Below, piece after piece: positions 46,801 through 63,586 of a DNA stretch of 64,000 nt; the first letter of the stretch is position 1; the number at the start of each line of letters is the position of its first letter. A program made the position numbers and the translations under genes. The notes below the pieces were generated by a model that searched no databases, was not told the DNA's origin, and saw only the letters and a list, made by a program, of their open reading frames with translations. Origin of the DNA: Amphiscolops sp. MND2022 (lineage: Eukaryota); the NCBI GenBank assembly GCA_964187785.1, contig OZ076409.1:3226001-3290000 (forward strand), written 5' to 3'.

Positions 46801-49800
46801 GGAAGCGGGGGTTCGAAAATATTGCGCTACATTCGTATCTTGAGGTTATATCCGAAGTAAATTGTGTTTCACTGAGGAGGAAGCGGGAGTTCGGAAATAT
46901 TGCGCTATATCCGTATTTGGACGTTATATCCGAAGTAAATTGTGTTTTACTGAGGAGGAAGCGGGAGTTCGGAAATATTGCGCTATATCCGTATTTGGAC
47001 GTTATATCCGAAGTAAATTGTGTTTTACTGAGGAGGAAGCGGGGGTTCGGAAATATTGCGCTATATCCGTATTTGGACGTTATATCCGAAGTAAATTGTG
47101 TTTTACTGAGGAGGAAGCGGGGGTTCGAAAATATTGCGCTACATTCGTATCTTGAGGTTATATCCGAAGTAAATTGTGTTTCACTGAGGAGGAAGCGGGA
47201 GTTCGGAAATATTGCGCTATATCCGTATTTGGACGTTATATCCGAAGTAAATTGTGTTTTACTGAGGAGGAAGCGGGGGTTCGAAAATATTGCGCTACAT
47301 TCGTATCTTGAGGTTATATCCGAAGTAAATTGTGTTTCACTGAGGAGGAAGCAGGAGTTCGGAAATATTGCGCTATATCCGTATTTGGACGTTATATCCG
47401 AAGTAAATTGTGTTTTTCTACGGAGGAAGCGGAGGTTCGAAATATTGCGCTATATCCGTATTTTGACGATATATATGAAGTAAATTACGTAAATTCGTAT
47501 TTTGACGTAAATTACGTTTTACCAGGGAGGAGATAAATTTTCGATTAGGCGTCCAATTGAAGGCGGAAAATATCCCGGTGCATAGCGGGGTCTTGTTCTA
47601 TATAACCAGTAATGAACTGTTTCAACAAGTAGTCGCAAAACAACTAGCCCCCCTTTCAGCCAACCTTTTCGTAACTTCGCATTGGATCAAAAAGCTGTTA
47701 AATCCAGACACGAAAGAATCTAATCTGATTAGTGTTTCCTATTTTCATTCCCATCAGCTACATTACATGCCAAGACGAAAAGCAAAATATCGTACCCCCA
47801 TCGTCTAAGTAGAAGTTTGAGTCAGAAATGTAATTTTGGGGAGATTCGATCACTTTATATAGCTTCTCGCAATAATTTTGACTTCATCAAGAAGTTTGCC
47901 AATTACGAAATTAGTTGTTTAACATCTCTAGACCACAAATACGTTTTGGCTACGGTGAGCGAAGTTTCAAACGCAAAAACATGGACTTCTGGAAAACTTC
48001 AATGACGCTCATGTTTGGTACCTCCTTTGCTCTTCTTTCAATGTTTTGTCCCGGAACAAATCGGAAACTTTGATTTTTAGTCGGCGTTTTCAAAGAAAAA
48101 GCACGACTCTTACAGTGGCTAGTTTTTTTTCGCAATTTTTTTTCCACCAAACAGTCCTCCTCCCTTCAAGTTTTGATCATTTGCGACAGAATGGATGAAA
48201 AATCTCAAAAAGCGTCCCGTGGTGCGACAATTCGGTCCAACTTTTGGGTTTTCCAGGTACTGTAAAAGAATACTTGACACTTTGAAGACCTTTTGCTATT
48301 TTTGAGCCTTAGATATGGCGCCGACTTATGCCGTTCCCGGCTTGTTTATTCAATATCCAGGTGCTTAGAAAAAGAACTGCCACTTGGCCCAGCATGCTAC
48401 ATCTGAACTTCTGACGTTATATACGAAGTAAAAAGCGTCTTATTAATAAAGAGGATGCGGAGGTTCAAAAATATTGCGCTATATCCGTATTTTGACGTTA
48501 TATCCGAAGTAAATTGTGCTTTACTGAGGAGGAAGCGGGGGTTCGAAAATATTGCGCTACATTCGTATCTTGAGGTTATATCCGAAGTAAATTGTGTTTC
48601 ACTGAGGAGGAAGCGGGAGTTCGGAAATATTGCGCTATATCCGTATTTGGACGTTATATCCGAAGTAAATTGTGTTTTACTGAGGAGGAAGCGGGGTTTC
48701 GAAAATATTGCGCTACATTCGTATCTTGAGGTTATATCCGAAGTAAATTGTGTTTCACTGAGGAGGAAGCGGGAGTTCGGAAATATTGCGCTATATCCGT
48801 ATTTGGACGTTATATCCGAAGTAAATTGTGTTTTACTGAGGAGGAAGCGGGGGTTCGAAAATATTGCGCTACATTCGTATCTTGAGGTTATATCCGAAGT
48901 AAATTGTGTTTCACTGAGGAGGAAGCGGGAGTTCGGAAATATTGCGCTATATCCGTATTTGGACGTTATATCCGAAGTAAATTGTGTTTTACTGAGGAGG
49001 AAGCGGGGGTTCGAAAATATTGCGCTACATTCGTATCTTGAGGTTATATCCGAAGTAAATTGTGTTTCACTGAGGAGGAAGCAGGAGTTCGGAAATATTG
49101 CGCTATATCCGTATTTGGACGTTATATCCGAAGTAAATTGTGTTTTTCTACGGAGGAAGCGGAGGTTCGAAATATTGCGCTATATCCGTATTTTGACGAT
49201 ATATATGAAGTAAATTACGTAAATTCGTATTTTGACGTAAATTACGTTTTACCAGGGAGGAGATAAATTTTCGATTAGGCGTCCAATTGAAGGCGGAAAA
49301 TATCGCGGTGCATAGCGGGGTCTTGTTCTATATAACCAGTAATGAACTGTTTCAACAAGTAGTCGCAAAACAACTAGCCCCCCTTTCAGCCAACCTTTTC
49401 GTAACTTCGCATTGGATCAAAAAGCTGTTAAATCCAGACACGAAAGAATCTAATCTGATTAGTGTTTCCTATTTTCATTCCCATCAGCTACATTACATGC
49501 CAAGACGAAAAGCAAAATATCGTACCCCCATTGTCTAAGTAGAAGTTTGAGTCAGAAATGTAATTTTGGGGAGATTCGATCACTTTATATAGCTTCTCGC
49601 AATAATTTTGACTTCATCAAGAAGTTTGCCGATTACGAAATTAGTTGTTTAACATCTCTAGACCACAAATACGTTTTGGCTACGGTGAGCGAAGTTTCAA
49701 ACGCAAAAACATGGACTTCTGGAAAACTTCAATGACGCTCATGTTTGGTACCTCCTTTGCTCTTCTTTCAATGTTTTGTCCCGGAACAAATCGGAAACTT

Positions 49801-50198
49801 TGATTTTTAGTCGGCGTTTTCGAAGAAAAAGCACGACTCTTACAGTGGCTAGTTTTTTTTTCGTCAGTTCAACGCGATCGGTCCACTTTTTCTGTTCATT
49901 TCTTCAACTTCTTGGTCGAGAGGTTAACCCGGATTTTCTGGGGTCTGAGAAGCAGGAGAGCGTGGGTTCGAGTCAAACTAAACCACAAATTTTTTATGCT
50001 TCCAAAAGTAGAGGGGAGACCAAAGGGTCCCCCTTTGCGGTTTTTTTCGGCACTATGCGACATTTTTTCGAAAATTTTTGAATTCTATCAAAGGGTACCC
50101 CCTTGAATTTTTTGAAGTTTTCGGTTTGTAAAAAAAAATGTTTAATAAGCCTAAAGGGTCTCTTTTTGGGTTTTTCGGCAATATGCGACTTTTTTTAC

Positions 50199-50238
<40 letters not shown>

Positions 50239-53200
50239 ACACTATATTATTGTAAGGGGACAGCTGACAGCTTACCATACAATAAGTGTGGATGACTTAT
50301 GCAAGCATAAGTAGTTTTCTCGAACTTTACAACAATTAAAAAGACAGACAGGTTTATTTGAAGCGGAAATCACGCCAGGTACTAGCTACTTGAATAGGAA
50401 CTGCATTTGACTCTTTTTCCAGATGAATTTTCAATCTACTTTTGAATACATGTAAAACTCACACTTGGATCTCGCATATGTAGTGGTAGTGAGTTCCACT
50501 TCAGTGCAGTACAATGAAAGAATGATGAAGATGAAACAGATGAAAAATTACCCGTATAAATAACTTGATTCGTACGGAATTCCATCGATATGTTGCTGTA
50601 GGTAACTTCAACTGGTTTTGGAAAGCTTTTTTGGAAGAAATACTTTTTTTGAAAAAAAAATTTCCCAAGTTTTTCCAATTGTTGTTCCTTGAAGAATTTT
50701 GAGCCTTAGATATGAAGCCGACTTGGGCCGTTCCTGGCTTGTTCTGGATAGTTTTGCTAAGCGTGGTATTCTAGCAAAAAAATCATGTCGGAAAGTATTC
50801 AACATTGTTAGAAATAAGTGAATTTTGGCAAGCCCTACTTGATCTAACGTTTGCGCCTAGAAACCGTTTCTGACGGAAAATGAGGACTCAGAAAAATGCC
50901 GTACGACTAGTGGAAATGTATTTCGAATAGTATTACGAAAAATAAATATAGAAAAAGTGTTAATTTCAGTATTTGCTGTTGGAATATTTGGGCCATGATG
51001 GTGCATACATGATTGTACAAGGACCTCCGAGAACCTCTTTTGAAAACGACACGATCGGCTACCCACTCAGTATGCGATTGACACTGTCACACGACTCGAG
51101 CCTTCGGAAAACACGGATTCGAGACACAAGTTCTATGGATTTCTTGCTCTCACAAAAGAGAACAATTCTATCTCTATCACTTACATGCATTCCTTTCCAC
51201 AACGACATTTCATCATGACGTCATCAGTCAAGACTGAGAATGTCGTTTTGTGATTGGGGCTTCCCACTTGGGGCCGAAAAATACTTAGCATTGTATAATT
51301 CTCTGCAATCTGATTGGCTGACGGGTCGAATCGGAACGAAGTCCGTTCAAAGATGAAAAAAATGAATTTTTCTATTTCCCCTAGTCAGCTATGTTCACGT
51401 ACTCCTAGTGCCCTAAATGCAGGAGCAAAAGTTTCTTGGATTTTTGTCTAGTTTCCACTCGTCTAATAACCGGTAGATAAACAAAAACTAATCAAAACTG
51501 TTTGGCAAAAATTAAAAACTTCGGATCTTTTTTGTTCATACCCCCCTTCCCCCCCCGCACAGTAAGCGCGGAAACTTTAATTCCCCACCACTATCAGCGA
51601 TGAGTTTCAGTTGCAGTTAGAGCTATAAAATACTGCAATTTGATTGTTTGTTCCTATTAATTCAGTGATAATTTCACTTGACCGTTTAACTGGGGGGAAT
51701 TAAACTGGTGGGGGGGATTAACAGAAAAGATCCAAAAATGCTGCACGAAATCAGTTAATTTTTCCATTGAACTTAGTGAGAAATCTTTTTCAACAAAAGT
51801 GTTATCAATATGTTTCTAACGTTAGAAATGAAACTTTTGTGTTAGAAATCCATCATTGATTTTCATCATCTGTTAAAGTCTTTGATTCAGTACGTAATTT
51901 TTGATTCAATACGTAATTTTGTAAAGGTGAATTTCCAAATAACATAGTCCGGGGATAAACAGGGATGTAAAAAATTATATTGTATTTAAATATATTGACA
52001 ATGAATAAATAAAATATATTTATTTGTGGTTTTGTACAAGGCAAATTATTTATTTTTTGATCCAATGTATTTGTGTTTTGGGCCATTATATTTTGATATT
52101 CATTTTAATGTTTGCAAGTATTAAAAGAAATGTAGAATTTTGATCTTTCACGCGAAATACGCGAAGAGCCATTTCAGGAAGTTTCGTTAAAATTATTGAG
52201 GGTTATAAAAACAATATATTTTCTCGTCGCACAAAATTGGGCAATATATTTAATATATTCATTGTTAGTCAGCAACTATTAAATATATTTATTTTTTTTA
52301 AGATAAATATTTAAATACAATATTTTACATCCCTGGTGATAAACGAATGGAATCCCTATACTCTAATCATTTCTAACCTATTTCAGTTCAAATTTTGAAA
52401 TCATTGACATTTGAAAAAAGTTCGCTTTATTTACTACAGCTTTCGCTCATTTATTACATATGGTATTTCAAAACGTACACGTACTTCCATTAAAATAGCA
52501 ACGCGGTGTGATTTTGAGTAATATTCAATGAAATAGCGGTGTCGGGTCACAAGTCCGAAGGATAAAATTAAAATTTTCTCGTCCAATAAGATTTCAGAAA
52601 TCCAGCGTCGTTCAAGATTTACCACACATACTTCTCTGCAATCTGATTGGCTGACGTGGTCGAACAGGAACGAAGTCCGTTCAAAGATGAAAAAATGAAT
52701 TTTTCAATTTCCCCTAGTCAGCTATGTTCACGTACTCCTAGTGCCCTAAATGCAGGAGCGAAGCGAAGCGACGTGCCATATGGCCATGCCTCAATGTTGC
52801 TACTTGGCGAAGGGAGCGAAGCGACCGAGCCATACAACAAATATGCGAAGTATTTTTCGGCTAAGTGACCCACTGTCTTTTTTCGGCCAAGTGAAACCTT
52901 TTTTTTTCGACCAAGTGAAACCTTTTGTTTTTTTTTCGACCAAGTGAAACCTTTTGTTTTTTTTTCGGCCAAGTGAAACCTTTTGTTTTTTTTTCGGCCA
53001 AATGAAACCTTTTGTTTTTTTTTCGGCCAAGTGAAACCTTTTGTTTTTTTTTCGGCCAAATGAAACCTTTTTAATCGGCCAAGTGAAACTTTTTTCGGCC
53101 AAGTTAAACCTTTTTTTCGGCCAATTGGCAGCCCACCACTACTGCTTGGTTGGTTAGAGCGCGCCTCAATGTGAAACTCGCTGCAGTTCATCAAAACTGT

Positions 53201-56200
53201 TTGCGCGATTGCCGCCGTTACTTCCAAGAAATTACCTGCTTCAATCACCAGGTAACCGGGGGGGAGGTTGGTTCTTAGGGGCGATCGTCGGGATAACGTA
53301 GAAACGTAGAGTAGACCAACAGCCAGTAATGGAGGCATCATCAAAGCATGGAAACACGGAGGCGACAGAGATTGTGACGTGTTACTACTGCTCTACTCTC
53401 TATTACATAATATATAATAGCATATAATAAATGGTCGGTTCAGTCTGTGGCCGTTATATGTGTATAAACATGGCTGCTCATGTAATTGACGGTGGCGGCG
53501 AAGACGGTTGATGGGTGGTGTTGGTATTCGTGCAACTGACGGCGGTGGCGACGCGGATAAATTGGAAGATGGTATGATTATTATTGGTATGATTTGGAGG
53601 AGATACGGCTCTAAGATAAAGCTCTGGCAATTCTGCTGGAAGCGCTTGGAACATTCACCTGCCAGTCGGCTTCAACACATCGGCCAGGCATGAAAAGAAA
53701 CTAGCAACCACAGATAGGCCGTGGCAATGACAGCAGGACCATCAAATATTCAACAAAACAGTCGCCGCCGCCGCTGCAGCCACTTAAATTCTTACACTCT
53801 CCTCCCGTGTTAGGTAGGAACAATAACAAACTGGGAAAGCTGTAATAATATCCTTGCGTAATCCTTGAGTAATATCAGCTGCGATTATGTAATAATGACA
53901 TCATCCTAATAAACCCATCAAGGGCGCCCTGGAGAGTATCACCGAAACGAGGTCGCCGTGTCGGTCAATTAGAGACACTGCCGAAATGGCTGACCTAATA
54001 AAGTGTTACAACAAGTGTTGCATCTTTGAAAGATTTTGACCATTATGGTTGGCTCATTTTAAAACTGAATTTGTTTATTAGTCGAAGCTTTTTGAAAAGT
54101 GGCAAGTTTTTTCTTCAGTCACCGTAAAACGTCCACTTTTATAATTTTTGAAAATCTCTCATAACTGGCTGAGTGGGTGGCTGCAAAGTAAGGGTTCGAA
54201 TACCAGGATGGATTTTTTATCTGATTTTCGCAAAAAATGAAAACAGACCAAAAGTTCCCTTCTTCGTTTTTTTTCGGCGCTGTGCGACTTTTCCCGAAAT
54301 TTCCAACTAGTTCAAACATATTGCTCTTCTGAACCTAGGGTGTTCGAAAGCAATGAAAATTGCAGGAGAAATTGCAAAGTTTCAACGCAAAAGACACCAG
54401 AGTATTTCGTCTAGAATGTGAAATATTCTCCATCTCTGACATTTAGGCATCGAATGTTCACCAGAACAATTGGCTGTTGAACTTCTTCAGTTTAAAAACA
54501 AAGCAAAGTTGCACTTTTGTTATTTTCCGCCCACATAAATGGGGGAGGAAAATCATGATCTGTGATGCGTTTTTATTTTCCGCCCACATAAATGGGGGAG
54601 GAGGAAAATGATGATCTGTGACGCCTTTTTTTCTAATTCTGCCAACACTCCACTTTATCTCCACTCCATTTAGGCTGTTCAATTATGGTGGCTCAGTCAG
54701 GTTGTAGGTCCTGGGTTCGAACCCGGACTGGTGCTTGATTTTTTTGTTTCCCAGCCAGTAGGTCGTGGGTTCGAACCTCTCTTTCGACATACTTTTTTTT
54801 GCAAGAAGCGTGTCGCGGAAAATATCCCGGTGCTTAGCGGGCGTCTTGTTTGTTTGTTCGCAAGACGTGTGAGCCAGAAATGACTGTTGTTTCATTCGAC
54901 ACAATCATCATTTTTGTGGATTCAGTCGAATTGGCGACACCTGGATTCGCTCAATGCCAGACATGCCTATCATATCACTATAGAGTGAATAGAAACCAAG
55001 ACTTTCAGCCAAACTATTGCAACAATTGCCTGGCGGAACTGGATTAATTCGCCTTGCGGCTCTTTTGTGCTCCAGCATAACCCCCTACCCCCAACACCAA
55101 AAAAAAAGTTTTTGGATGAAAATCTTATTTAGACTTTAATGCAAACAAGAAACCTTCAACTTTAATTGAATTGAAATACAAACTTTGTTCACATTATTTT
55201 TTTTATGAAGTCACGCATTCTGGATAAAGAAATCAACAACTTCCAGTTATGAGTCACAAAAAAAAGTTAATTCAAACGTAATTCAAGTCGAAATGCGTGA
55301 AAAAAAAATTGTTCAAACAGAGAAAAACTATTCTAATAGACGTTAACTTCCTGTTTTGAAGAAGGTTTTACTTTTAATTAGGCAGGGCTTAATTTTTTGA
55401 AGAAGGATACAAAAATTTTGGTGGTGGTGGGGGGTTGTGGTTGTTTTTTTTTTTTGGGGGGGGGGGTTGGGTAGAAAAGAGCCCGCCATGCACGTAAGAA
55501 TTAAGAACGTGTTGTAATTCAAGTTCAACTTATTTCCTTGAACGGCGGCTACTAATGTCTTGGTTCTGTATAAAACATGTAACATGTAACGAGACACGGC
55601 ATGTTATTTGCAGTAGCGCCATAGAGTTAGAAGCAGCAGTAGCGCCATTTTCATATTTAGCCTCCTGTTGGGGGCGGGCCGGCTCTTACCAACGACGCCA
55701 CACTTATTACGCAATACAACAGAGGTCATCGTCCTAAACTGACTGACCAATGAAGGTGATACCACATACACTACCACCAGGAGTAAACAGGGCATTACGT
55801 AATATGACTACTAATCGGCATATTTCGCAATAACCAAGTTGATGATGCGTCACCGGAGTTGTAAAAAACACGAATTCAACAACAACAAAAAAAACATTAA
55901 CGATTTAGCACTTTTCTTACAAAGGTAAGTTTTTCGAGTTTTTCCATTCCAAGTCGATTTTGTAGATCATTTTGGATGAATCCCATCGCACTGAAAATTC
56001 TTTCCAAACTGGCTGAACTTGGCGCAAGCTTTTCAAGCGTGACAGCAAGGGTACTAAGTTCTTCAGATATTTTTCCCATTGCTATCGGAAAAATTAAGCT
56101 TAGATCTTAATGCGAATCGCAATTTTAGTTTGAAATACTGTTTTGATTTGTGTTGAAAGTATGCAATAGTTTAAATGATCCTTTATAAACAAAAAAAAAC

Positions 56201-59200
56201 TTTTTCCTTTATAAATAAAAAAACTTTTTTCCTTTAAAAATCCTTTTAAAAAATAGAAATGCACTACACTGGTGACAAGGCAACAACAGAGGTAAAAATA
56301 GTCCATCAAATTTCATCCAACGGGCATTCGTTTCAAAAATAGAACCAATGCAAAACATGTTTTTTCGTCCAAAGTTTCGTCAAAAAGCAAAACATGTTCC
56401 ACTGATATAATTCAGAGACTGTCCTAGAGAACGAAAACTGTATGAATAAGAATCCGAATTAAGTTTTGTACATCCAAGTCAGTGGTACCCACATTCAGAA
56501 ACGTCATTTTCCTTCAATTCCAATAAAACGGCAGTGAACTCGATTCTGGAGCCATTACATAATCATATCTCATCCTATCGTTTCTTCACTTGAGCAACAC
56601 CACCCGCTGGCACAGAAAAGCACAGGACTGTAGGGCCTGCGTTCTAATCAAGAGAAATGTACTTTTTGTGATTTTATAATGCCTTTTTAACGACGCATAT
56701 TTTAATACCCATTCTCAATTCACATTTCTCTTCTGAAACATCTTTTTAGTCGGCGCCTTTTCCCTTGAGGAAAAAAGCCCGACTATTACAGTTTTTTTAA
56801 GCCTACAATCTCACTCTGAATGGTCCACTTTTCTTACAATTCTTCCAATTTTTACAATTCTTACTTAGCTTACGAAGTTCTGCTCCTCTTACTATATACT
56901 TAAGGGGACCGTGCGAAGCGAAACTATGTTGGTCTGCAACAGGAATGATGGCCCAGAGTTCAGAGGGGCAATTTTTAAACTGAGGAATGAGATAGTGCCG
57001 AATCGCTGCAAGCTGCAGAGCCTCCTTGCAGTGTCAGTAACGGTCCCCGCATATACAAAAATTGAAAACCTCATCAAGTGGAGGACAGATTTACAAAACA
57101 AAACACCAAAATTTATTGAGATGGTTGAAAAACTAGGTTCTGGATATGCACCCAATTAGGGATTGTCTTAATTCACGACAGCCTTCCCTCCTGCACTGTT
57201 GCCGCAATGGAAGACTCAAAATGGTCTATTTGACGCTTAAGTGCGCGACATCCCCTCAGGCATAGTACCGAGCTTCGTAAAAGTGCAAAGCTGATTTTCG
57301 TTCGAATGAAGCTAATTGCGTCGGAATAGCTGTCATATCCTTTTTCAGAGATTTTCAACGCAAGTCTTGACATAACTTTCGAAGCCGACGGTCCTGCTCC
57401 ACCAGTACAGGCAAAGACTAGCGGGTTGAAGGTACTGTGTTCCACATCTATGATTCTCTGCTCATATTTCAATTTTTTCTGACTTTCGTGTTGTTTATAA
57501 GCATCTTTGATGTTTCGGGGACAGGATGCGGCGTGAGGATTGAAAATCTTCACGTCAAAAAAAGTACGGCAAAAGCGGGAATCCCAGAGTCCGCTGGCCT
57601 TGATATCGAGGCGGGCTTCATCTTCAGTGCATGTGGTTCTGTGATCGAAGGACTCGCCTTCCAATGCCTGAAGTTTGGGCTCGATTTCGACATCGTAGCA
57701 AACGTCTCTCATTATTTTGGCGAACGTGTCACGGATCTCATTGTGGCGCATGTGGGTATAGCCTCCTTTGCCACAGTGGAGTGCATGTGAGACTGTAAAA
57801 TCTTCGCCACAGGAGCATTTTAAAGGAAGATTTTTTGGTTGAAGGCCATACCTGAGAGATAGGCCGTCGCGAAACTTAGCTTACGAAGTACTATTTTTAC
57901 ATCATCTAAGAAATTCAACGGTGCCAAAGGGTACTCCATTAGAGTACCAAAGGGCCCCCCTCAATTTTTTGATATTTTGTGACAGAATGGATGTTGAAAA
58001 ATCCCAAATGGTCCCCCCTTTCAGTTTTTTCGGCATTATGAGACTTTTTTCATTTTTTTTCATAAAAGGGTCCTCAATTCACCAATACTTCGACATTTTG
58101 AAGTCCTTTTGCTATTTTTGAGCCTTAGATATGGCGGCGACCTATGCCGTTCCGGACTTGTTGATACAAAACAAAACTGACAAAAGCCATTCCAGAAATC
58201 ATAAGATCCCATTTTGGACGATTTTGACCGAGTTCCTTGCTTTGTGATAGAATTACAATTAGTCTCTGAGAGAAAAACTAAGCTCTTAATTGGGGATTAT
58301 CCTCATTTGTGTCTGATGGATCTGGTGGTATAAATACAATAACCTCCTTTTTCCTTACTAATCACCCTCATCATTGCCATTGAAAAGCGCGACAATCATG
58401 GTCATTCATTTGTATGCATGATAGATGAACTTCTGCTGTTGCAGCCAAAGCATGAATGCAGCAGCATTATTTTAAATGAAGAATAACGGCATTAAGAGAT
58501 AAAAATGGACTGAGCATTAAAAACAGGAGGAGAAAGCAGGACGAAATTGCCACCGCCGCCGCTGTTTTTCCCTGTTACTGTCGCCGCCGCCACTGCCATC
58601 AAGAAATGATGGTAATAATGATGGTAGTATATACAATATACCACTACTACAGTACAGTTGTACCGTTTGTTGTAGTAGATTTACGTCATGTATGTACGTG
58701 GCGCTGAACGGTGGCTAGCTAAGCTAGGCTAATACCACTAGTGCCTTGTGCGGGGGGGGGGGGTTGTGAGATGGAATGTGCCTTCTTTTTTTTCTCCAAT
58801 CTTGTCCGTGATGTTCAGAGAGACAAAAAAAAACACGTAACTCAAGCAATAATCGGTGGCGGCCTCAAAAACGATAGCAATATAGATTGATCTATTGTAT
58901 GTGTGTAGAGTAGATACCTAGGTACATACATGTAGATACTGCATTCAATAGCAGCAATTTGATTAGTAGCACTACTACAGTTGGTAGTTGGTAGTACAAT
59001 GGTGCTCTTCTGATCTCAAGGCGAGTGATTATCATTTCACAAAAATGACAGCAACAGCGCGTCTGTAGGCCATCAATCAAACCTGTACAGCCAGCCAATG
59101 GAATATTCACACTTCCCTGTATATATCTCGCTCTCCTTTTCCTATACTTTCCTCTCCCTTTCTTTGCTTTGCTTCCCCTTCAGCAAGGATACACCACCCG

Positions 59201-62200
59201 CCGCACCTCCTAATAATAGCACCCACTGCTCACCCACCACTAATCTTCCCTATCCATGTCTTCAACATCTCAGAACTGCTTCCTAACCAACTACTCCCAT
59301 TGCGTTTGCCTTCTTGACGTCGTTTCAACCCGGCCGCCCTTTCCGACAGACTTCGAAACGGAAAATAAACAAGAGTGATAACATGCACAATACAGTGGAT
59401 CTAAGCGGATATAAAAAACCCGCTTCCGAGAGAAATACCCGCGTATAGTCAATGCGTATCTTGGCCCCGACTACCAATTTAATTCCTTATTTCACCCGCA
59501 TATAAGAACAAGCCGGGAACGGCCCAAGTCGGCGCCATATCTAAGGCTCAAAAATAACAAAAGGACTTCAAAGTGTCAAGTATTCTCTTCTACAGTACCC
59601 GTTTGAGGAAAAATTGAAAAAAAATTCCGATTTTTTTGAAATTTTTTAATTTTTTTTTGGTCTCCCGTAAGTCGCATAGTGCCGAAACATGTAAAATGGG
59701 GCCCTTTGGAAGTTTTTTAACCTCCATTCTTTTGCAAAATAGACAAAAAAAATGAAGGGTGGACCCTTTGGAGATATTTGCGAAAAAAGTCTCACAAAGC
59801 CGAAAAAAATTTTGGTCATGGCGGGACTCGAACCCATGTCATTCTGCTTGTCAGACCTCGAAAAAGCCGTAGTGGCCAAGTGGCAGTGAAGTAGCGTGAC
59901 ACAGTTCAGTGTTAGTGCCGGTTTAGTGCCAACTTATAAAATTTATAAAATCTGTCAGTTCGTTGGTCTTAAAAAAAAAGAAGTCACTACTATAGTCTGC
60001 GTTTTTCTTCGAAAAGCGCCGACTAAAAACCACCAAAAGTCCTTCCGCTGACGTTGACTGTATCCGGGATCCTCCACTGTATCAAGTCACGTTCATCACG
60101 TTGACATTCATCCACTTCAAACTAAATTTACCTATTTCAAATTTCTCGAAGCATTGCTGTGGTTGTTTCAAAAAATTCAGAAAAGTCGCATAGTAACGAA
60201 AAAACACAAAGATGGGACCCTTTGGGCCTTTTTATCATCCAGTTGGTTGCAGAAAATCAAAATGACCGAAGAGGGGACTCTTTTGCGAAAAGCTTGAGAA
60301 AAATCTCAATACCAAAAAAAACTAAAACCAAACATTCTGTTGTTCAGTAACAACAAAAGATTTAAAAACAAACCAAAGGTGGTACCCGTTGGAAGCACCC
60401 GAGTATGCTTTCTGCTAATATAGGAAGGCCAATGTAGGAAGGCCAATAGAGAAATATAGGAAGGCCAGTGTGACGTCTGTGGTCTGGAGAAAAAAAGCGT
60501 AACTGTAGGAGTCAGGCATTTTTTGTTTACACAAAGAGCGCAGACTAAAAATACTAGAGAACAAGACAGGAACGTCTAAAGTCAGCGCTATACTTAATAA
60601 TATTGCTCAAAAAGGGCAAAGTTTTAGGAATATGCTGAGGACTTTGATTAATGAAAAACTCACAAAAAATGAGCTCTCGTGCTCTGAAAACGCTTCAAAT
60701 GTTCGGATATAACGTGCTGGGCCACATGGGAGCAGATATTTCGAACATCCGCCTCCTCAGTAAAACGCAATATAGTTCGGATATAACGTCAAAAAATCGG
60801 ATATAGCGCAATAGTTTGAACCTCCACCTCCTTTTTAGTGAAACGCAATTTACTTCGGATATAACGTCAAAAATAATTGAAAAAGATTGATGGGTATATA
60901 TATTGAGAAAACCTAAAATCAGACGAGAAATCAGAAGTTTGAACAGCCTCATCGAGCCGAAAAATGTAAAAGACCATCAATTCTGTTGCAAAATATCACA
61001 AAAAGGGCGTTTGCAGACACTTAAAATTTTCGAAAAAAGTCTCAGTGCTGAAAAAATTGAGAGGTGGTGGTACCTTTTAGTCTCGTTCAGTTTTGTAACG
61101 TTAGAAAAGAACAAACCGGGACCGTCGACGCCATATCTAAGGAACCTTCGGTTCAATTCCCTGGGCCAACAGGTACATTTTGGCGACATTAAAATTTCGT
61201 AGGACTTTTGGTAGACCTATTTCGGTCACTTCAGGTGCATCGAAAAAAACACTGATGAAAAGCCATGACTATAGTCGACTCTTTTCTCAAGAAAAGCGCC
61301 GACTAAAAACGAAAGCGGTCCATTTGCGCTGACTTAGATGTGGTTCCGCTGACCTGACTTGGCCGGTCCAGTAGTTTCGTAGTTTCTGTAATAAGTGTCC
61401 AAGCATACATTCTGTTATCTCACGAAAAAAAGTCATTGTAATAGTCGCGCTCATTTTCTAAAATGGGCCGATAAAAAAGAAGAGTACGTTTCAAGTCGGC
61501 ACGACATTCAAGGCTCAAAAAGAGCAGTCACAAAGACGCTCAGTGACTTCAAGAAAGGGACACCCTGTAGACTCGAAAAAAGCTTTTTCTCTGGCTGAAA
61601 TCATACAAAAATACCAATTTGGTGGAAAAATGATTTTTCTCAAAGTCACACAGTGCCAAAAACCTCAATGGGGGGTTCACAAATGAACCAAATTACTCTT
61701 TGAGATATTAGCCTCGTACTGTACGCAGCGAGAAAAGTTGATGAAAAAGCAGTGATGAATAAGCCTTTTGCGATCACCAACAGCTACTTTTGTTTTCATT
61801 GTCCAATGTTCATGTAAAGTGATTCGCCTCCATTCATTTGAAGTTAGAATTGAGTTGACTAAACGCGTTTGATTGGCTTCTAAAAGTTAGTTAACATTTC
61901 TCTAGATTCACTTGAAATCTAATTTGCTTCATTAATTTTGAAATGGATTTGCTTTCGTTTAAAGTCGTTTTCACTTGGCTGTCAACGCGGCGATCGTCTT
62001 CCACTAAATTGGAATGCTGCTATTCGTTTATATAAGAATTGGTGTATTACACCAATTTTAATTTAAATGAAGATCATTCCAATATAGTTGAATATCGAAG
62101 AAGCATTGACAGCCAATTAAAACGACTTGGACAAAAGCAATTCAATTCCGAAATAAATGAAGCAAAACGGGTTTCAAGTGAATGTAGAGAAGAGATAACA

Positions 62201-63586
62201 CACTTTTGGGAGCCAATCAATATTTTAATCAACTCAATCTCATCTTGAAATGAAGAGTATCTCTTTAAAAGAATATATGTTCCTTACAGAAAAAAAACTT
62301 TCTCGCTGCCTACCGAAAATTGATTGGTGAAGCGATTGATTCATTCAAATTGTAATTTGGTTCAAATGAACTGAAAATGCCTCGTTTTCCTCTGTTCGTA
62401 GTTAGAGCTCACTCAAATTGATATTATTCCACTCAATGAGGAAATTCAAACCGGCGCTATTGTTAAGTTAGGGCTGAATTTTATTGGTCGATTCACTTAA
62501 TGTGTAAAGTTGCTTCGCTTAAATTAAAATTGGTGAATGATTAGAGAAATTTGGTCTGATAGTTAGTAGTTAGGACTGTTTCCTTCTGGCTCGCTCAAAT
62601 CCCAGTGATACGATTTTGATGCCATTGCACATATAGAACTCTTATATGGTGTGGAATGACTGTAGAAAATTTCGTTTGAATCGAAAATTGAAAAATGGCT
62701 GTTTTTTGGTCGTCTTTGGGCTAACTCTGGCTATGTTTCTCAGATCTCAGCCATACAATTTTGATGCCATTGCGAACGCAGAAGCACCTTTGGGTGTATT
62801 ATAGTGACTGTGGAAAATTTTATGGAAATCATATGGACAATTTTTGAGAAATTAGAAATTTTCATTGACAAATCGGGACAAAACGTCACGATTGCATAAG
62901 TAGTCAAAACTTTTTTCTGACTCCTCCTAAAAATTGGTGTATTATACATACCTTTTCCATGTCAATTTCGCCAAAATGAAATTGAACTTTGCCAAGATGA
63001 AAATCAAGATCGCGTGAATGAATTTCAATTTCGCTTTCGTGAAACAATTTTCGCCAATATGAAACTGAATTTTGCCAAAAAGAAAATGACTTTGCCAAAT
63101 TAGAAACAGATTTTTTGTGTGAAATTGAGTTTCGCTACGGCGGAAATGAATTTCGTTCATGCAAAATTGATTTCCTTTTTGGCAAAGTTGAGTTGCATGT
63201 TGGCGATGATTTTCAATTTTGTTCAGGCGGAATTGACTTTCATTTCGGCGGCGAAATTCAGATGGAAAAGGTATAGAGAAAGTTAGTAGTGTGAAAGTAG
63301 GAAGTGGTAGTTACCTGTAGCTGTCCACTGACGCACTCGGAAGATGGTTGCATGTGTGGGTGACCTTGGCCCCCGGTGGAAGAGAAGTGACCTGTGGGTG
63401 GGGGGGCTGCAGAGATATTTCTGTAGACGGAGGCGGGTAAACTATAGAATAAGGCACTGGCTGCACTACTACTGCTAATGTTAGCATTGCTGCTGCTACT
63501 TCCCCCTCCTGCTCCTCCGTTCATGACGTCACCACTGCCGCCCCCAACCCCCACTGCTGCCGATGACGTCACACTGCTGTGTACTC
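1530..63586 (-). CDS. RIMS: RIM family (Rab3-interacting molecule, RIMS1/2 / unc-10-like) active-zone protein; partial 14-exon gene running off both window ends
   Basis: Spliced translation VSGQLQ|MQLSYNDKDSQLTVTVCQAVDLISREGGQARNPYAKIYLLPDRSEDSLRRTKTATNTLCPQWNQSFSFYVNR|NSFPDKELEVTLWD...EFLGE|VLLSLDQAMLDND...PQWYDLHVHDSSSNHSLPIPSP matches the RIM C2A pattern (RNPYxKIYxLPDRS, RRTKT, LExTLWD, EFLGE, WYxL..HD..SLPxPxP). All 13 introns are GT-AG with compatible phases. Confidence 0.88.
2012..2285 (-). CDS. RIMS: RIM linker exon (RNIPMRRQSS...SPHL)
   Basis: Acceptor (TG)n-TTGAAG|, donor AG|GTTAGA; 274 nt, phase 1 to 2. Confidence 0.76.
2332..2683. mobile_element. hAT-type MITE (TTAGCG-rich family)
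   Basis: TIRs CAGAGTTTTGACA / TGTCAAAACCCTG; perfect 8-bp TSD ATTGTTAA. Confidence 0.88.
2694..2997 (-). mobile_element. 5'-truncated CRE copy (last codons FHDGGLS* plus 3' UTR)
   Basis: Same ORF terminus and 3'-UTR module as 25195-25579. Confidence 0.72.
3930..4101. mobile_element. Tc1/mariner-type MITE
   Basis: TA-CAGTCGATCCCGGATAT...ATATCCGGGATCCACTG-TA; a relative at 59393-60079 is split by a HINE-A copy. Confidence 0.78.
5023..5213 (-). CDS. RIMS: RIM linker exon, Gly-rich (GGTSPGSTGP...EYVN)
   Basis: Acceptor TTTTTCAG|, donor G|GTTAGT; 191 nt, phase 2 to 1. Confidence 0.8.
5267..7143. mobile_element. Composite hAT-type element with nested insertions
   Basis: Ends CAGGGACTCCGAA / TTCGGAGTTTCTG; perfect TSD ACTGTCAT; a second left end at 6688; internal element with ATCTTGGCAAG repeats (about 5320-6480). 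Confidence 0.75.
7861..7989 (-). CDS. RIMS: RIM linker exon (MCHSDAEGDFLSDYE...SYR)
   Basis: Acceptor TTTCAG|, donor CA|GTAAGT; 129 nt, phase 2 to 2. Confidence 0.8.
8808..8873 (+). other. tRNA-derived (Pol III A/B-box) segment inside a repeat
   Basis: TGGCTTAGTGG...GGTTCGAATCT at tRNA-like spacing, but no intact cloverleaf. Confidence 0.45.
9287..9601 (-). CDS. RIMS: RIM linker exon (SGRGNGG...HFTRD)
   Basis: Acceptor GTGCAG|, donor AG|GTAGGC; 315 nt, phase 2 to 2. Confidence 0.78.
9946..10179 (-). CDS. RIMS: RIM linker exon (SPTYYSD...FPRSLPDP)
   Basis: Acceptor TGTTTAG|, donor AG|GTTGGT; 234 nt, phase 2 to 2. Confidence 0.78.
10272..10374 (-). mobile_element. CRE 3'-terminal fragment
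   Basis: AAGGACCGCGCGTACTGAAACCGGGATTTGG...GTGTCAGTA, near-identical to 2694-2802. Confidence 0.65.
10958..11338. mobile_element. MITE with ~50-bp TIRs
   Basis: ATTGTAATACACCGTT..TGAAGCATATCAGATGTT / AACATCTGATATGCTTCA..AACGGTGTATTGCAAT. Confidence 0.7.
11375..11557. mobile_element. Tc1/mariner-type MITE
   Basis: TA-CAGTCAAACTCGGATAAAAGAAAC...GTTTCTTTTATCCGAGTTCGACTG-TA. Confidence 0.85.
11597..11774 (-). CDS. RIMS: RIM linker exon (EGYHYVTGSSRHSD...RYSS)
   Basis: Acceptor GCACAG|, donor AG|GTCACA (weak); 178 nt, phase 1 to 2. Confidence 0.75.
11797..12211. mobile_element. Fold-back MITE with long imperfect TIRs
   Basis: CATTTCGTCCTAT..CCGCCATTTCGAAATAAACTAATTTTGGCTA is mirrored by TAGCCAAAATTAGTTTATGTCGAAACGGCGG..ATAGGATGAAATG. 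Confidence 0.7.
13264..13590 (-). CDS. RIMS: RIM linker exon (REDVFLSRKG...GYHSA)
   Basis: Acceptor TTTTATCAG|, donor G|GTTGGT; 327 nt, phase 1 to 1. Confidence 0.78.
13674..15972 (-). mobile_element. Cluster of nested or tandem HINE-A elements
   Basis: Hairpin ends ACAAG(C/A)CG...AAGTCGGCGC at 13674, 14101, 14486 and 15451; GCGCCGACTAAAA ends at about 15165, 15220, 15915 and 15972. Confidence 0.7.
13826..14015 (+). repeat. 22-bp minisatellite (ACGTTATATCCGAACTTTGAAA), about 8 copies
   Basis: Direct inspection; lies inside a HINE-A copy. Confidence 0.85.
15973..16490 (-). mobile_element. HINE-B: second Helentron-associated family
   Basis: Minus strand: TATTATTTCTGC-GATA-GCAG at the 5' end; GCAGAAATAATA plus a GC hairpin and T-run at the 3' end; no TSD. 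Confidence 0.68.
17784..18311 (+). mobile_element. HINE-A: Helentron-associated (DINE-1-like) non-autonomous element, full-length
   Basis: T-run + subTIR AGTCGGCGC with nearby partial inverted copy (GCAGACT); 3' subTIR GCGCCGACT followed by hairpin GCCG-TTCC-CGGC and TTGTT; no TSD. Confidence 0.72.
18318..18790 (-). mobile_element. HINE-B copy
   Basis: Homologous to 15973-16490; part is repeated at 19211-19447 by tandem duplication. Confidence 0.68.
18554..19871 (+). repeat. Direct tandem duplication, 657-bp unit
   Basis: 18554-19210 = 19211-19867; TCAA at all three breakpoints. Confidence 0.95.
20354..20796 (-). mobile_element. HINE-B copy
   Basis: Clear terminal hairpin GCCCC-ATGC-GGGGC next to subTIR TATTATTTCTGC. 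Confidence 0.7.
20835..20972 (-). CDS. RIMS: RIM linker exon (VADKTSSWDNNSNP...DRSHG)
   Basis: Acceptor TTTCAG|, donor G|GTAAGA; 138 nt, phase 1 to 1; GC-rich island between two transposons. Confidence 0.8.
21011..21412. mobile_element. Mutator (MULE)-like MITE
   Basis: TIR core ATTCAAATCGTAGAATATTCAAA / TTTGAATATTCTACGATTTGAAT, G/C termini, 9-bp TSD ACTCAACAC/ACTCAATAC. Confidence 0.7.
22114..22412 (-). mobile_element. HINE-A copy
   Basis: CAAGCCGGGAACGGCCCAAGTCGGCGCC...GCGCCGACTAAAA. Confidence 0.7.
24540..25579 (+). mobile_element. Degenerate tandem CRE-clade retrotransposon remnants
   Basis: Broken frames TLQPVEGEFFVHKTTTAEDETRL..GLWDTR..KLKYDFRIIN, KIINLEKNTFNP and YPDAISYTRTKIRFAL..HDGGLS* align by eye to the 57173-57751 ORF; 3'-UTR ends at 24812-24912 and 25450-25579. 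Confidence 0.8.
25913..26498 (+). mobile_element. HINE-A copy with internal 22-bp minisatellite
   Basis: Ends GCGCCGACTTGGGCCGGTCCCGGCTTGTT; internal TTCAAAGTTCGGATATAACGTT repeats. Confidence 0.65.
26999..27508 (-). mobile_element. HINE-B copy nested in a hAT MITE
   Basis: Homologous to 15973-16490; absent from the sibling MITE at 51960-52335. Confidence 0.7.
28079..28162 (+). repeat. 20-bp tandem repeat AGGGACCACACTTATAAAAT (3 copies plus 1 dispersed)
   Basis: Inverted partner AAGTGTGGTCCCT at 27842 and 27891. Confidence 0.8.
28654..28982. mobile_element. hAT-type MITE, same family, inverted
   Basis: Ends CAGGGTTTTGA / TGTCAAAACTCTG; perfect TSD CTCAAAAG. Confidence 0.88.
29163..29568. 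mobile_element. TA-flanked MITE with 30-bp TIRs
   Basis: TACAGACATGATGTAATACACATCTAATTT / AAATTAGATGTGTATTACATTATGTCTGTA. Confidence 0.72.
29637..30257 (-). CDS. RIMS: RIM exon: 621-nt Pro/Ser/Thr/Gly-rich linker exon
   Basis: GC-rich open frame; acceptor GTGCAG|, donor A|GTAATT (weak); phase 1 to 1. Confidence 0.72.
31281..31453. mobile_element. Tc1/mariner-type MITE nested in a TTCGTACA-repeat element (about 31050-31490)
   Basis: TA-CAGT...ACTG-TA; inverted sibling at 34585-34757. Confidence 0.78.
32127..32282. mobile_element. TA-flanked MITE (CCGTA termini)
   Basis: TA-CCGTATTTC...GAAGTACGG-TA. Confidence 0.6.
32380..32790 (+). repeat. Dispersed repeat family, unclassified (ATCCCAGTCATACGATTTTGATGCCATTGC core)
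   Basis: Related copies at about 35090-35280, 35727-35920, 36308-36620, 41190-41590 and 62575-62930. Confidence 0.7.
33524..33709. mobile_element. Tc1/mariner-type MITE, same family as 11375-11557
   Basis: Same TIRs and TA TSD. Confidence 0.85.
34585..34757. mobile_element. Tc1/mariner-type MITE
   Basis: TA-CAGTGGAATCCG...CCGGAGTTCACTG-TA. Confidence 0.78.
34792..35060 (+). mobile_element. 5'-truncated CRE copy (GGLS* plus 3' UTR)
   Basis: Inverted homologue of 2694-2997; its 3' tip is repeated at 35634-35696. Confidence 0.72.
34998..36273 (+). repeat. Direct tandem duplication, ~637-bp unit, slightly diverged
   Basis: TAAGGGCAAAAAAGTCGTCTCTC starts at 34998 and 35634; both copies end TTTTTGAGCCTTA; scattered substitutions and a 2-bp indel. 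Confidence 0.92.
36654..36894 (-). CDS. RIMS: RIM exon: C2A C-terminus (VLLSLDQAMLD...WYDL) plus Pro-rich tail
   Basis: Acceptor CTTCAG|GTG, donor T|GTGAGA; 241 nt, phase 0 to 1. Confidence 0.88.
37726..38363 (-). mobile_element. HINE-B copy with internal fold-back
   Basis: Homologous to 15973-16490 with an added inverted duplication at 37858-37958. Confidence 0.68.
38978..39337 (+). mobile_element. HINE-A, internally deleted version of 17784-18311
   Basis: Same ends; lacks about 170 bp including the tRNA-like B-box segment. Confidence 0.72.
40040..40375 (+). repeat. Dispersed repeat family, unclassified (AACAGGAAGCTGTTGA / GTGTGAACAAAGTTTGTA core)
   Basis: Related copies at 1-260, 690-1010, 4660-4970 and inverted at about 55130-55390. 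Confidence 0.7.
40922..41078 (-). CDS. RIMS: RIM exon: C2A middle (LEVTLWD...EFLGE)
   Basis: Acceptor TTGGCAG|, donor GAG|GTATGG; 157 nt, phase 2 to 0. Confidence 0.9.
41709..42440. mobile_element. hAT-type MITE, same family, with internal 77/78-bp tandem expansion
   Basis: Starts CAGAGTTTCGACACTGCTAATCAGCG, as at 2332; degenerate TSD CCAGCCAC/CCAAACAC. Confidence 0.75.
41983..42412 (+). repeat. 77/78-bp tandem repeat, about 5.5 copies
   Basis: Units start at 41983, 42061, 42138, 42216, 42293 and 42370. Confidence 0.92.
42469..42683 (-). CDS. RIMS: RIM exon: C2A domain N-terminal half
   Basis: Acceptor TTGTAG|ATG, donor AG|GTCGGT; 215 nt, phase 0 to 2; contains RNPYAKIYLLPDRS...RRTKT. Confidence 0.92.
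42785..43233 (+). mobile_element. HINE-A copy at the left edge of the 1.7-kb array
   Basis: TTTTAGTCGGCGC...GCGCCGACTTATGCCGTTCCCGGCTTGTT. Confidence 0.7.
43021..49862 (+). repeat. Tandem array of four ~1.7-kb units (1730, 1652, 1730, 1730 bp), each with a 78-bp minisatellite block
   Basis: Units start at 43021, 44751, 46403 and 48133 and are near-identical; 9, 8, 9 and 9 full 78-bp monomers plus a partial. Confidence 0.95.
50199..50236 (+). repeat. (GA)n microsatellite
   Basis: Direct inspection. Confidence 0.9.
51960..52335. mobile_element. hAT-type MITE, uninterrupted version of 26942-28227
   Basis: Same TIRs; TSD GGGATAAA/GTGATAAA (7/8). Confidence 0.82.
52877..53125 (+). repeat. ~22-29-bp minisatellite (CGGCCAAGTGAAACCTTTTGTTTTTTTT), about 10 copies
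   Basis: Direct inspection. Confidence 0.88.
53659..53691 (-). CDS. RIMS: Candidate alternative first coding exon of RIM (MPGRCVEADWQ)
   Basis: ATG at 53691 with an in-frame TAG 9 nt upstream, 11 codons, phase-0 donor CAG|GTGAAT matching the phase-0 C2A acceptor; lies in a TE-poor island. Confidence 0.5.
55897..56080 (-). pseudogene. hAT transposase C-terminal dimerisation-domain remnant
   Basis: LSTLAVTLEKLAPSSASLERIFSAMGFIQNDLQNRLGMEKLEKLTFV fits the hAT dimerisation motif (P.SSAS.ER.FS..G......RNRL..E..EKL.F); the rest of the transposase is not visible. Confidence 0.78.
56744..58161 (+). mobile_element. HINE-A copy interrupted by a CRE insertion
   Basis: Both HINE-A ends flank 56879-57873. 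Confidence 0.7.
56879..57873 (-). mobile_element. 5'-truncated CRE-clade (restriction-like endonuclease) non-LTR retrotransposon
   Basis: Open frame FRDGLSLRYG..CSCGEDFTVSHALHC (CCHC)..RHNEIRD..ARLDI..FFDVKIFNP..KKLKYE..TGG..ISFALLR..EGRLS*, then a 3' UTR; flanked by the 16-bp direct repeat ACTTAGCTTACGAAGT (56863-56878, 57874-57889); inserted inside a HINE copy. Confidence 0.85.
59507..60029 (-). mobile_element. HINE-A, near-identical inverted copy of 17784-18311
   Basis: Same subTIRs, hairpin and interior. Confidence 0.72.
60560..61308 (-). mobile_element. HINE-A copy with about 1.5-2 monomers of the 78-bp minisatellite
   Basis: ACAAGACAGGAACGTCTAAAGTCAGCGC...AAAGCGCCGACTAAAA; 60740-60875 is the reverse complement of the array monomer. 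Confidence 0.62.
61717..62313. mobile_element. Probable MITE
   Basis: TIRs GCAGCGAGAAAAGTT / AACTTTCTCGCTGC. Confidence 0.5.
63315..63586 (-). CDS. RIMS: RIM exon: Ser/Gly-rich pre-C2A linker ending in VSGQLQ (first C2A strand)
   Basis: Acceptor TTGTTAG|, donor CAG|GTAACT; 272 nt, phase 1 to 0; joins in frame to exon 42469-42683. Confidence 0.85.

What the first reader, a model, noticed from the sequence alone, without database searches (positions are those of the whole stretch)
53659..53800. Candidate internal first exon giving a RIM isoform that starts at the C2A domain
Seen: in the 20.6-kb intron that splits the first C2A strand, a TE-poor island (about 53130-54000) reads, on the gene strand, GCGGCGGCGGCG..., a 13-codon uORF ending TAG, 9 nt, then ATG CCT GGC CGA TGT GTT GAA GCC GAC TGG CAG|GTGAAT. 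The donor is phase 0 and follows a Gln codon, like the canonical upstream exon, so it would splice in frame to MQLSYNDK. Established: vertebrate RIM genes use internal promoters (beta and gamma isoforms). Inference: an isoform MPGRCVEADWQ-C2A-linker-C2B lacking the Rab3/Munc13 Zn-finger and the channel-binding PDZ, with a substituted first C2A strand and possible uORF control.
Basis: partly seen in the sequence, partly recalled or inferred. Interest (0 to 1): 0.72.

Follow-up and report, generated by a model that had tools for sequence, protein, structure and literature searches.

The report
Unproven extra start in RIM intron
A short stretch inside a long intron of the synapse gene RIM reads on paper like an extra first exon, but look-alikes of this strength occur about once per intron of this size and it lacks the marks of real gene starts in this animal, so it is likely ordinary intron DNA.

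Summary
The letters are as described. On the minus strand of a RIM gene's 20,631-nt intron lie a GCG run, a 13-codon uORF, TAG, 9 nt, an ATG at 53691 and a good phase-0 donor at 53659, in a genome-unique island. This is not beyond chance: other RIM introns give 0.047 such hits per kb, about 1 expected here. The peptide lacks the conserved G-[RQK]-[LIV] of the first C2A strand and scores like random intron. The 400 nt upstream scores below all 48 host gene starts tested, and none of those has a GCG run. All 9 C2A-first RIM models found keep the native strand. No RNA run was listed, so the junction is untested. New context: the genome carries the published acoel spliced leader, 2,470 matches. 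An intronic transcript could therefore be leader-capped, dropping the uORF, or capped directly on the C2A exon, which itself begins with ATG. Verdict: likely chance intron sequence (0.6); real first coding exon about 0.15.

The parts
63315..63586 (-). Canonical upstream exon (acceptor phase 1, donor phase 0); ends PSSECVSGQLQ and supplies the first 3 residues of C2A strand 1
   Evidence: strand profile score 15.4 bits, above all 197 random intron hexapeptides
42684..63314 (-). 20,631-nt GT-AG intron that splits C2A strand 1; 63% covered by local repeats
53128..54244 (.). Locally unique island, GC 0.44; 53130-54000 is single-copy in G000
53763..53774 (-). (GCG)4 run; an AG acceptor-like site (7.2 bits) gives a first base at 53773
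53701..53742 (-). 13-codon uORF with TAG stop, in the same frame as the candidate ATG; the TAG doubles as a weak acceptor (5.2 bits)
53659..53691 (-). Candidate 11-codon mini-ORF MPGRCVEADWQ ending at phase-0 donor CAG|GTGAAT (8.8 bits); -3 T, +4 C
53230..53238 (-). Second donor in the island, CAG|GTAATT after 53236 (8.1 bits), with a stop 3 codons upstream in phase 0; would suit a non-coding exon
58171..59390 (.). Second genome-unique island of the same texture (GCG runs, donor after 59083, 8.1 bits)
42469..42683 (-). First C2A exon; begins with an in-frame ATG directly after the acceptor AG
   Evidence: Pfam C2 E 6e-12; best PDB hits RIM2 C2A 2bwq and 1v27

Best explanation
The ATG-to-donor mini-ORF is likely a chance look-alike inside a single-copy, likely regulatory stretch of a RIM intron, and the intron is likely removed whole from 63314 to 42684 to give full-length RIM. 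Shown: gene structure, phases, uniqueness of the island, and the background rate of such look-alikes. Inferred: that the donor at 53659 is not used, and that the island holds cis-regulatory DNA (its GCG runs recur in the sister island at 58-59 kb and in the gene's first coding intron).
For: About 1 such hit is expected per intron of this size: 7 in 149,045 nt of other RIM introns; the antisense control over 141,113 nt gave 28 donors, ATG-open in 2, 11 and 8 cases by phase. At a 7-bit cut-off, 12 of 19 donors in this intron have a phase-0 ATG, 4 of them copies in a tandem array. Positions -4, -3 and -2 before the junction are G in 64, R/Q/K in 74 and L/I/V in 79 of 87 distinct RIM contexts; the candidate's A, D, W occur in 0, 0 and 0; it scores -5.9 bits, and 68% of 197 random CAG-ended intron hexapeptides score as well or better. 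Host starts: T-rich acceptor within 15 nt in 14 of 48 (intron ATGs 74 of 1,159), absent here; -3 purine in 32 of 48, here T. The 400 nt upstream scores below all 48 host upstream regions in a 5-mer classifier (AUC 0.77), and GCG octamers occur in 0 of 48 host regions. No 5-residue word of the peptide occurs in 417 fetched proteins.
Against: The donor is as strong as a typical real donor of this gene (8.8 bits; leave-one-out median 8.0), one of only 3 that strong in the intron, and the other phase-0 ATG hit (61410-61354) overlaps a dispersed repeat. The island carries two good CAG|GT donors, and only 7.5% of shuffles give an ATG-open one. Intronic GCG octamers occur only in this intron and the first coding intron. 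This is the longest intron after the PDZ exons (next 8.6 kb). Vertebrate RIMs use internal promoters (PMC10169678). The host set is housekeeping genes (Ras, DnaJ), which may not represent neural promoters, and the splice matrices rest on 26 sites assigned by frame continuity.
Confidence: 0.6

Rival explanations
1. Real alternative first coding exon. An intronic promoter fires upstream of about 53800; the 5' part is likely replaced by the spliced leader at the AG before 53700 (or 53773), which would remove the uORF; the 11-codon exon splices to 42683 and gives a RIM of C2A, linker and C2B with three foreign residues (D, W, Q) at the start of strand 1, lacking the Zn finger and PDZ.
For: Phase-correct donor of typical strength in unique DNA. 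The genome trans-splices. A YAG lies within 15 nt of the ATG, as in 26 of 48 host starts against 396 of 1,159 intron ATGs. AG|TTTC with ATG 9 nt on matches 10 of 22 distinct leader junctions of leader-capped retro-copies, and only 10 of 1,159 intron ATGs. W at -2 keeps a hydrophobic residue at the inward position (inference). C2A-first RIM models exist in insects.
Against: AG|TTTC is not a host-gene signal: 0 of 48 host starts, and pairs of retro-copies show that real leader acceptors are T-rich YAG with an A on the exon side (L060 vs L087, L066 vs L076). Weak acceptor (5.2 bits, above only 5 of 26 real ones), poor start context, no strand-1 likeness, upstream composition unlike host starts. 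All 9 C2A-first models keep the native strand.
Confidence: 0.15
2. A C2A-first isoform exists but does not use this mini-ORF. A promoter in one of the two islands (or the long intron acting as an outron) leads to leader addition, or a non-coding exon (donor 53236 or 59083), on the acceptor at 42683, and translation would start at the ATG that opens the C2A exon, losing 3 of 9 residues of strand 1.
For: The C2A exon begins AG|ATG in frame; Met stands there in only 2 of 87 homolog contexts. Host starts L102, L107 and L110 also read AG|ATG. The leader holds no ATG and ends TAG|GT. In Schistosoma 43% of leader acceptors are ordinary cis acceptors, favoured by long introns and intronic promoters (PMC5832876, passages).
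Against: The acceptor at 42683 is TG-rich like the other cis acceptors, not T-rich like leader acceptors, and its upstream 400 nt scores like bulk intron. Met for Val/Leu/Ile is a common substitution. A shortened first strand may not fold (untested).
Confidence: 0.12
3. Cassette exon inside the full-length message: 53700-53659 (42 nt, phase 0 to 0) would insert FLFMPGRCVEADWQ into strand 1, in the manner of the Piccolo C2A splice switch; or 53773-53659 would act as a stop-bearing poison exon.
For: Both ends have splice-site form and the 42-nt piece keeps frame; only 1% of island shuffles give a frame-keeping exon with both sites this strong. The acceptor is TG-rich like real cis acceptors of this gene.
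Against: Weak acceptor; 2 of 26 real exons start with T. No long RIM among 311 in register shows such an insertion pattern in the strand profile. It cannot replace the canonical exon, whose acceptor is phase 1, and shares only C, V and the forced Q with it.
Confidence: 0.08

Closest known systems
Vertebrate RIM1-beta, RIM2-beta and RIM2-gamma from internal promoters (PMC10169678, passages read)
   Same: N-terminally shortened RIM from a promoter inside a large intron.
   Different: Beta forms keep the PDZ; gamma forms have only C2B. No C2A-first class is listed there, and use of the site here is unproven.
Annotated C2A-first RIM models: Drosophila mojavensis isoforms U, V, AC; D. navojoa X11; Manduca sexta models
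   Same: Protein begins 15-16 residues before the C2A junction, without Zn finger and PDZ.
   Different: They start at a Met that is internal in the full-length protein (checked for D. mojavensis and M. sexta) and keep the native strand. They are database models; for D. melanogaster PMC10494931 (passages) says all 14 variants carry the Rab3-binding domain.
Dysferlin C2Av1 (PMC3898210, passage; that it comes from an alternative first exon is recalled, the primary paper was not held) and the Piccolo C2A splice switch (Garcia 2004, title seen in reference lists only)
   Same: Alternative exons change part of a C2A domain while the fold survives.
   Different: Those variants are shown by RNA and structure; the dysferlin variant keeps the structure, whereas the peptide here has no strand-like profile.
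Spliced-leader addition at internal acceptors and intronic promoters (Schistosoma, C. elegans; PMC5832876, passages); acoel leader (PMC9911081, passages)
   Same: Long intron, leader present in the genome, acceptor next to an ATG.
   Different: Leader use at any site of this gene is untested; the candidate acceptor is not of the T-rich host type.

Membership tests
RIM (type I, unc-10 like) gene | N-terminal Rab-binding helix and Zn finger | tested here: met
   PF22601 RIM2a_ZnF over cut-off on L009:2702-2920; tblastn hits about 73-95 kb beyond the window end
RIM (type I, unc-10 like) gene | PDZ domain before C2A | tested here: met
   tblastn to RIM PDZ, E 5e-7 to 9e-7, and a second exon; Pfam PDZ half-domain E 0.0013, below cut-off; the first PDZ exon had no Pfam hit
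RIM (type I, unc-10 like) gene | C2A and C-terminal C2B | tested here: met
   Best PDB hits RIM2 C2A and Drosophila RIM; C2B exons 52-80% identical to RIM homologs 15-18 kb before the window start; no second RIM-level C2A match among 5 in G000
RIM (type I, unc-10 like) gene | Type I versus type II placement by phylogeny | not tested
   No tree built; all named near hits are RIM1/RIM2/unc-10
Alternative first coding exon | Donor of normal strength, in frame with the next exon | tested here: met
   8.8 bits, phase 0
Alternative first coding exon | Rarer than chance in the intron | tested here: not met
   About 1 expected, 2 seen; island shuffle P 0.075
Alternative first coding exon | Spliced reads to the next exon | not testable with these tools
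   No run was listed
Alternative first coding exon | Transcription start or leader-capped 5' end upstream | not testable with these tools
   No CAGE or raw reads
Alternative first coding exon | Start context like host gene starts | tested here: not met
   No T-rich acceptor, -3 T, +4 C; upstream 400 nt below all 48 host regions; host set is housekeeping genes
Alternative first coding exon | Conserved in related species | tested here: inconclusive
   No relative genome offered; 3 metagenome loci were distant C2 domains, 39-59%; no peptide word in 417 proteins, but none is a full-length close relative
Duplicated or mutually exclusive copy of the canonical exon | Same phases and the G-[RQK]-[LIV]-Q strand motif | tested here: not met
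   Canonical acceptor is phase 1; in-frame TAG 3 codons above the ATG; profile score -5.9 against 15.4
Spliced-leader acceptor | Leader RNA genes in the genome | tested here: met
   2,470 matches, control 1; tandem array with TAG|GTAAGT
Spliced-leader acceptor | T-rich YAG close upstream of the start codon | tested here: not met
   YAG present but not T-rich; T-rich form in 14 of 48 host starts

The most novel reading that the evidence does not exclude
This acoel-type RIM gene makes a leader-capped, C2A-first isoform from a promoter in the intron that splits C2A strand 1, either through the 11-codon exon (swapping the start of the strand) or directly at the ATG that opens the C2A exon. It would be a RIM class between beta and gamma, without vesicle-priming Zn finger and channel-binding PDZ, built by trans-splicing in an early-branching bilaterian, and a natural test of what C2A does.
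Probability: 0.25. Interest if true: 0.6.

Novelty: not a real feature. Interest (0 to 1): 0.22.

Why it matters
If the best reading holds, nothing new: an ordinary RIM gene with a pseudo-exon, and a caution that ATG-to-donor hits need a background rate. If a C2A-first form is real, it would add an isoform class not among the seven vertebrate ones listed in PMC10169678, isolate the poorly understood C2A-linker-C2B half of RIM in vivo, and show leader trans-splicing as a route to synaptic scaffold diversity. One leader-primed RT-PCR would decide.

Tried and rejected
RNA: the one run search (island 53130-54000, kind rna) listed no RNA holder; this is no evidence either way, and no reads could be laid. 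Relatives: no relative genomes are offered for G000; the metagenome scan gave 3 distant C2 loci; three protein searches and one profile-library search showed no protein identical to the C2A exon, best 82% (P0001) (only the best 120-150 rows are listed, so this is weak). Duplicated or mutually exclusive exon (shared C-V offset): rejected on phase and profile. AG|TTTC as a trans-splice signal: noted before the test, then failed on host genes, 0 of 48. GCG run as promoter mark: 0 of 48 host upstream regions, 4 of 109 intron windows. Shared motif CCAGGGCGCCC between this island and a first-intron island: 30 sites in G000 against 54 for the control, 2 of them in this gene; chosen after the fact, not pursued. 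Rfam: 0 matches at E 0.5 in 53000-59500. A 58-codon ORF below the donor (53654-53480) had no Pfam match. No retro-copy of the island or the C2A exon was found in G000. Literature searches for a C2A-first or acoel RIM isoform showed none in their listings. The predicted isoform itself was not folded, so whether the altered strand folds is open.

Full report
What the gene is. The window holds the middle of one RIM gene on the minus strand. With 150 kb fetched upstream and 50 kb downstream, tblastn with RIM homologs placed the Rab-binding helix about 95 kb and the Zn finger exons about 73 and 28 kb beyond the window end, two PDZ exons 1-3 kb beyond it, the C2A exons at 42.7, 41.1 and 36.9 kb, and C2B 15-18 kb before the window start. 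Pfam gives RIM2a_ZnF over cut-off, C2 at E 6e-12 and half a PDZ below cut-off; the best solved relatives are RIM2 and Drosophila RIM C2A. I assigned 26 donors and 26 acceptors by frame continuity; they are not RNA-verified. The intron in question runs 63314-42684, 20,631 nt.

The island is single-copy in G000. In an AlphaFold model of homolog P0111, strand 1 is residues 27-35 and the aligned junction falls after residue 29, so three of nine residues come from the upstream exon.

Chance. On a matrix from the 26 donors the candidate scores 8.8 bits, above 16 of 26 leave-one-out scores of real donors; only 3 donors in the intron reach that, 2 with an in-frame phase-0 ATG. The other one (61410-61354) overlaps a dispersed repeat. 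The other RIM introns (149,045 nt, which still contain a few unassigned exons) give 7 such hits, 0.047 per kb, so about 1 is expected here; 7.5% of 2,000 island shuffles give one. The antisense control over ten introns gives a like rate averaged over phases (2, 11 and 8 in 141,113 nt). At 7 bits, 12 of 19 donors in this intron have a phase-0 ATG, 4 being copies in a tandem array. The feature is thus plausible but not rare.

The peptide. Among 87 distinct junction contexts from 311 long in-register RIM-type proteins (of 417 fetched, 354 with the C2A motif), positions -4, -3 and -2 are G (64), R/Q/K (74) and L/I/V (79). The canonical exon fits (15.4 bits, above all 197 random CAG-ended intron hexapeptides); the candidate's A, D, W are seen in none, score -5.9, and 68% of the random peptides do as well. 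Nine proteins over 400 aa start within 60 residues of C2A, among them D. mojavensis U, V, AC, D. navojoa X11 and two M. sexta models. All keep the native strand, and the fly and moth starts are internal Met residues of the full-length protein. So C2A-first models exist, but none of the kind proposed. For D. melanogaster, PMC10494931 (passages) says all 14 variants carry the Rab3-binding domain. No close full-length relative was among the listed hits, so conservation of the exon itself is untested.

Trans-splicing changes the question. Earlier scan notes on other DNA of this genome spoke of an acoel host and a spliced leader. PMC9911081 (abstract and passages) gives the leader of Symsagittifera roscoffensis and 30% of genes trans-spliced. 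A 20-nt part of it occurs 2,470 times in G000 (control 1), including a 904-nt tandem array in which the leader ends TAG|GTAAGT. The species of G000 was not established. A transcript begun in this intron could therefore be capped at the first good AG. The uORF's stop is itself such an AG, so the uORF would not reach the message, and the C2A exon opens with AG|ATG, so no coding first exon is needed for a C2A-first protein; Met stands at that position in 2 of 87 homolog contexts. In Schistosoma 43% of leader sites are cis acceptors, favoured by long introns (PMC5832876, passages).

A lead that failed. There are 492 dispersed leader-capped copies matching the pattern; in the loci held, 10 of 22 distinct junctions continue TTTC, often with an ATG 8-12 nt on, just as the candidate does. 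I tested this on host genes: 73 family-match starts (55 of 150 listed Ras rows that begin at profile position 4 or earlier; 18 of 30 DnaJ loci, leaving out one late-starting match and 11 that looked multi-copy); 14 had no in-frame ATG and 11 were dropped as ambiguous or near-duplicate, leaving 48. AG|TTTC 4-15 nt before the ATG occurs in 0 of 48, against 10 of 1,159 intron ATGs. Host starts instead show a T-rich YAG within 15 nt (14 of 48 against 74 of 1,159), which the candidate lacks; any YAG is present in 26 of 48 against 396 of 1,159, which it has. Pairs of retro-copies show the true leader acceptor to be T-rich with an A on the exon side, so TTTC is likely the stub of a second acceptor in those elements (inference). 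The 400 nt above the candidate ATG is 42% GC against 35% for host starts and scores below all 48 in a leave-one-out 5-mer classifier (AUC 0.77); GCG octamers are in 0 of 48 host regions and 4 of 109 intron windows. These are housekeeping genes, so a neural promoter could differ.

What speaks for something real. The donor is good and in frame; the island has a second good donor; only 1% of shuffles give a frame-keeping 0-0 micro-exon with both sites as strong; intronic GCG octamers fall only in this intron and the first coding intron; and this is the longest intron after the PDZ, although about 7 kb of it is a tandem array. These points suggest regulatory DNA, and do not single out this ATG.

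Verdict. Most likely the intron is removed whole and the mini-ORF is a pseudo-exon in a single-copy, probably regulatory island (0.6). A real first coding exon, most likely leader-capped and without uORF control, gets 0.15; a C2A-first form starting at the C2A exon's own ATG 0.12; a cassette or poison exon 0.08. RNA evidence could not be obtained. Papers seen: passages of PMC10169678, PMC7456537, PMC10494931, PMC3898210, PMC4709825, PMC9911081, PMC5832876 and PMC13754025; all others only as search listings. Searches listed no paper on a C2A-first or acoel RIM isoform.

Noticed in passing
window 58171-59390: Second genome-unique island in the same intron, with GCG runs, a TGATTGATGG site at 59079 (PBX-HOX-like, label recalled) and a donor after 59083; as good a promoter or enhancer candidate as the one reported.
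   Followed up: partly
window 42683: The C2A exon begins with an in-frame ATG right after the acceptor; Met is there in 2 of 87 homolog contexts. Two later exons (first bases 7990 and 6872 nt before the window start) begin G-ATG in frame.
   Followed up: partly
G000:C1:16.23-16.41 Mb (L070): Tandem array of spliced-leader RNA genes, 904-nt unit. The leader ends TAG|GTAAGT, one base shorter than the sequence printed in PMC9911081, whose last A is likely the common first exon base.
   Followed up: partly
L060-L100: Hundreds of dispersed retro-copies begin exactly with the spliced leader; many carry a second TTTCAG-type acceptor right behind it, and some families occur capped at either of two acceptors.
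   Followed up: partly
window 42900-50100: Four copies of an about 1.7-kb unit, each with a 78-nt satellite block, make up a third of the intron.
   Followed up: no
L002:2564-2867 and window 41078-40922: The first PDZ exon and the second C2A exon carry long insertions relative to other RIMs; neither exon has a Pfam hit on its own.
   Followed up: no
L011:5387-5930: The 5'-most coding exon found has AG acceptors just above its ATG, so the gene's true start is a non-coding exon or outron further upstream, not located.
   Followed up: partly
window 53932-53922 and L031: CCAGGGCGCCC and TTGATGGTCC are shared between this island and an island in the first coding intron; 2 of the 30 genome sites of the first motif lie in this gene.
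   Followed up: partly
window 53876-53703: The frame of the uORF stays open for about 58 codons above its TAG, so the candidate frame has one stop in about 73 codons.
   Followed up: no
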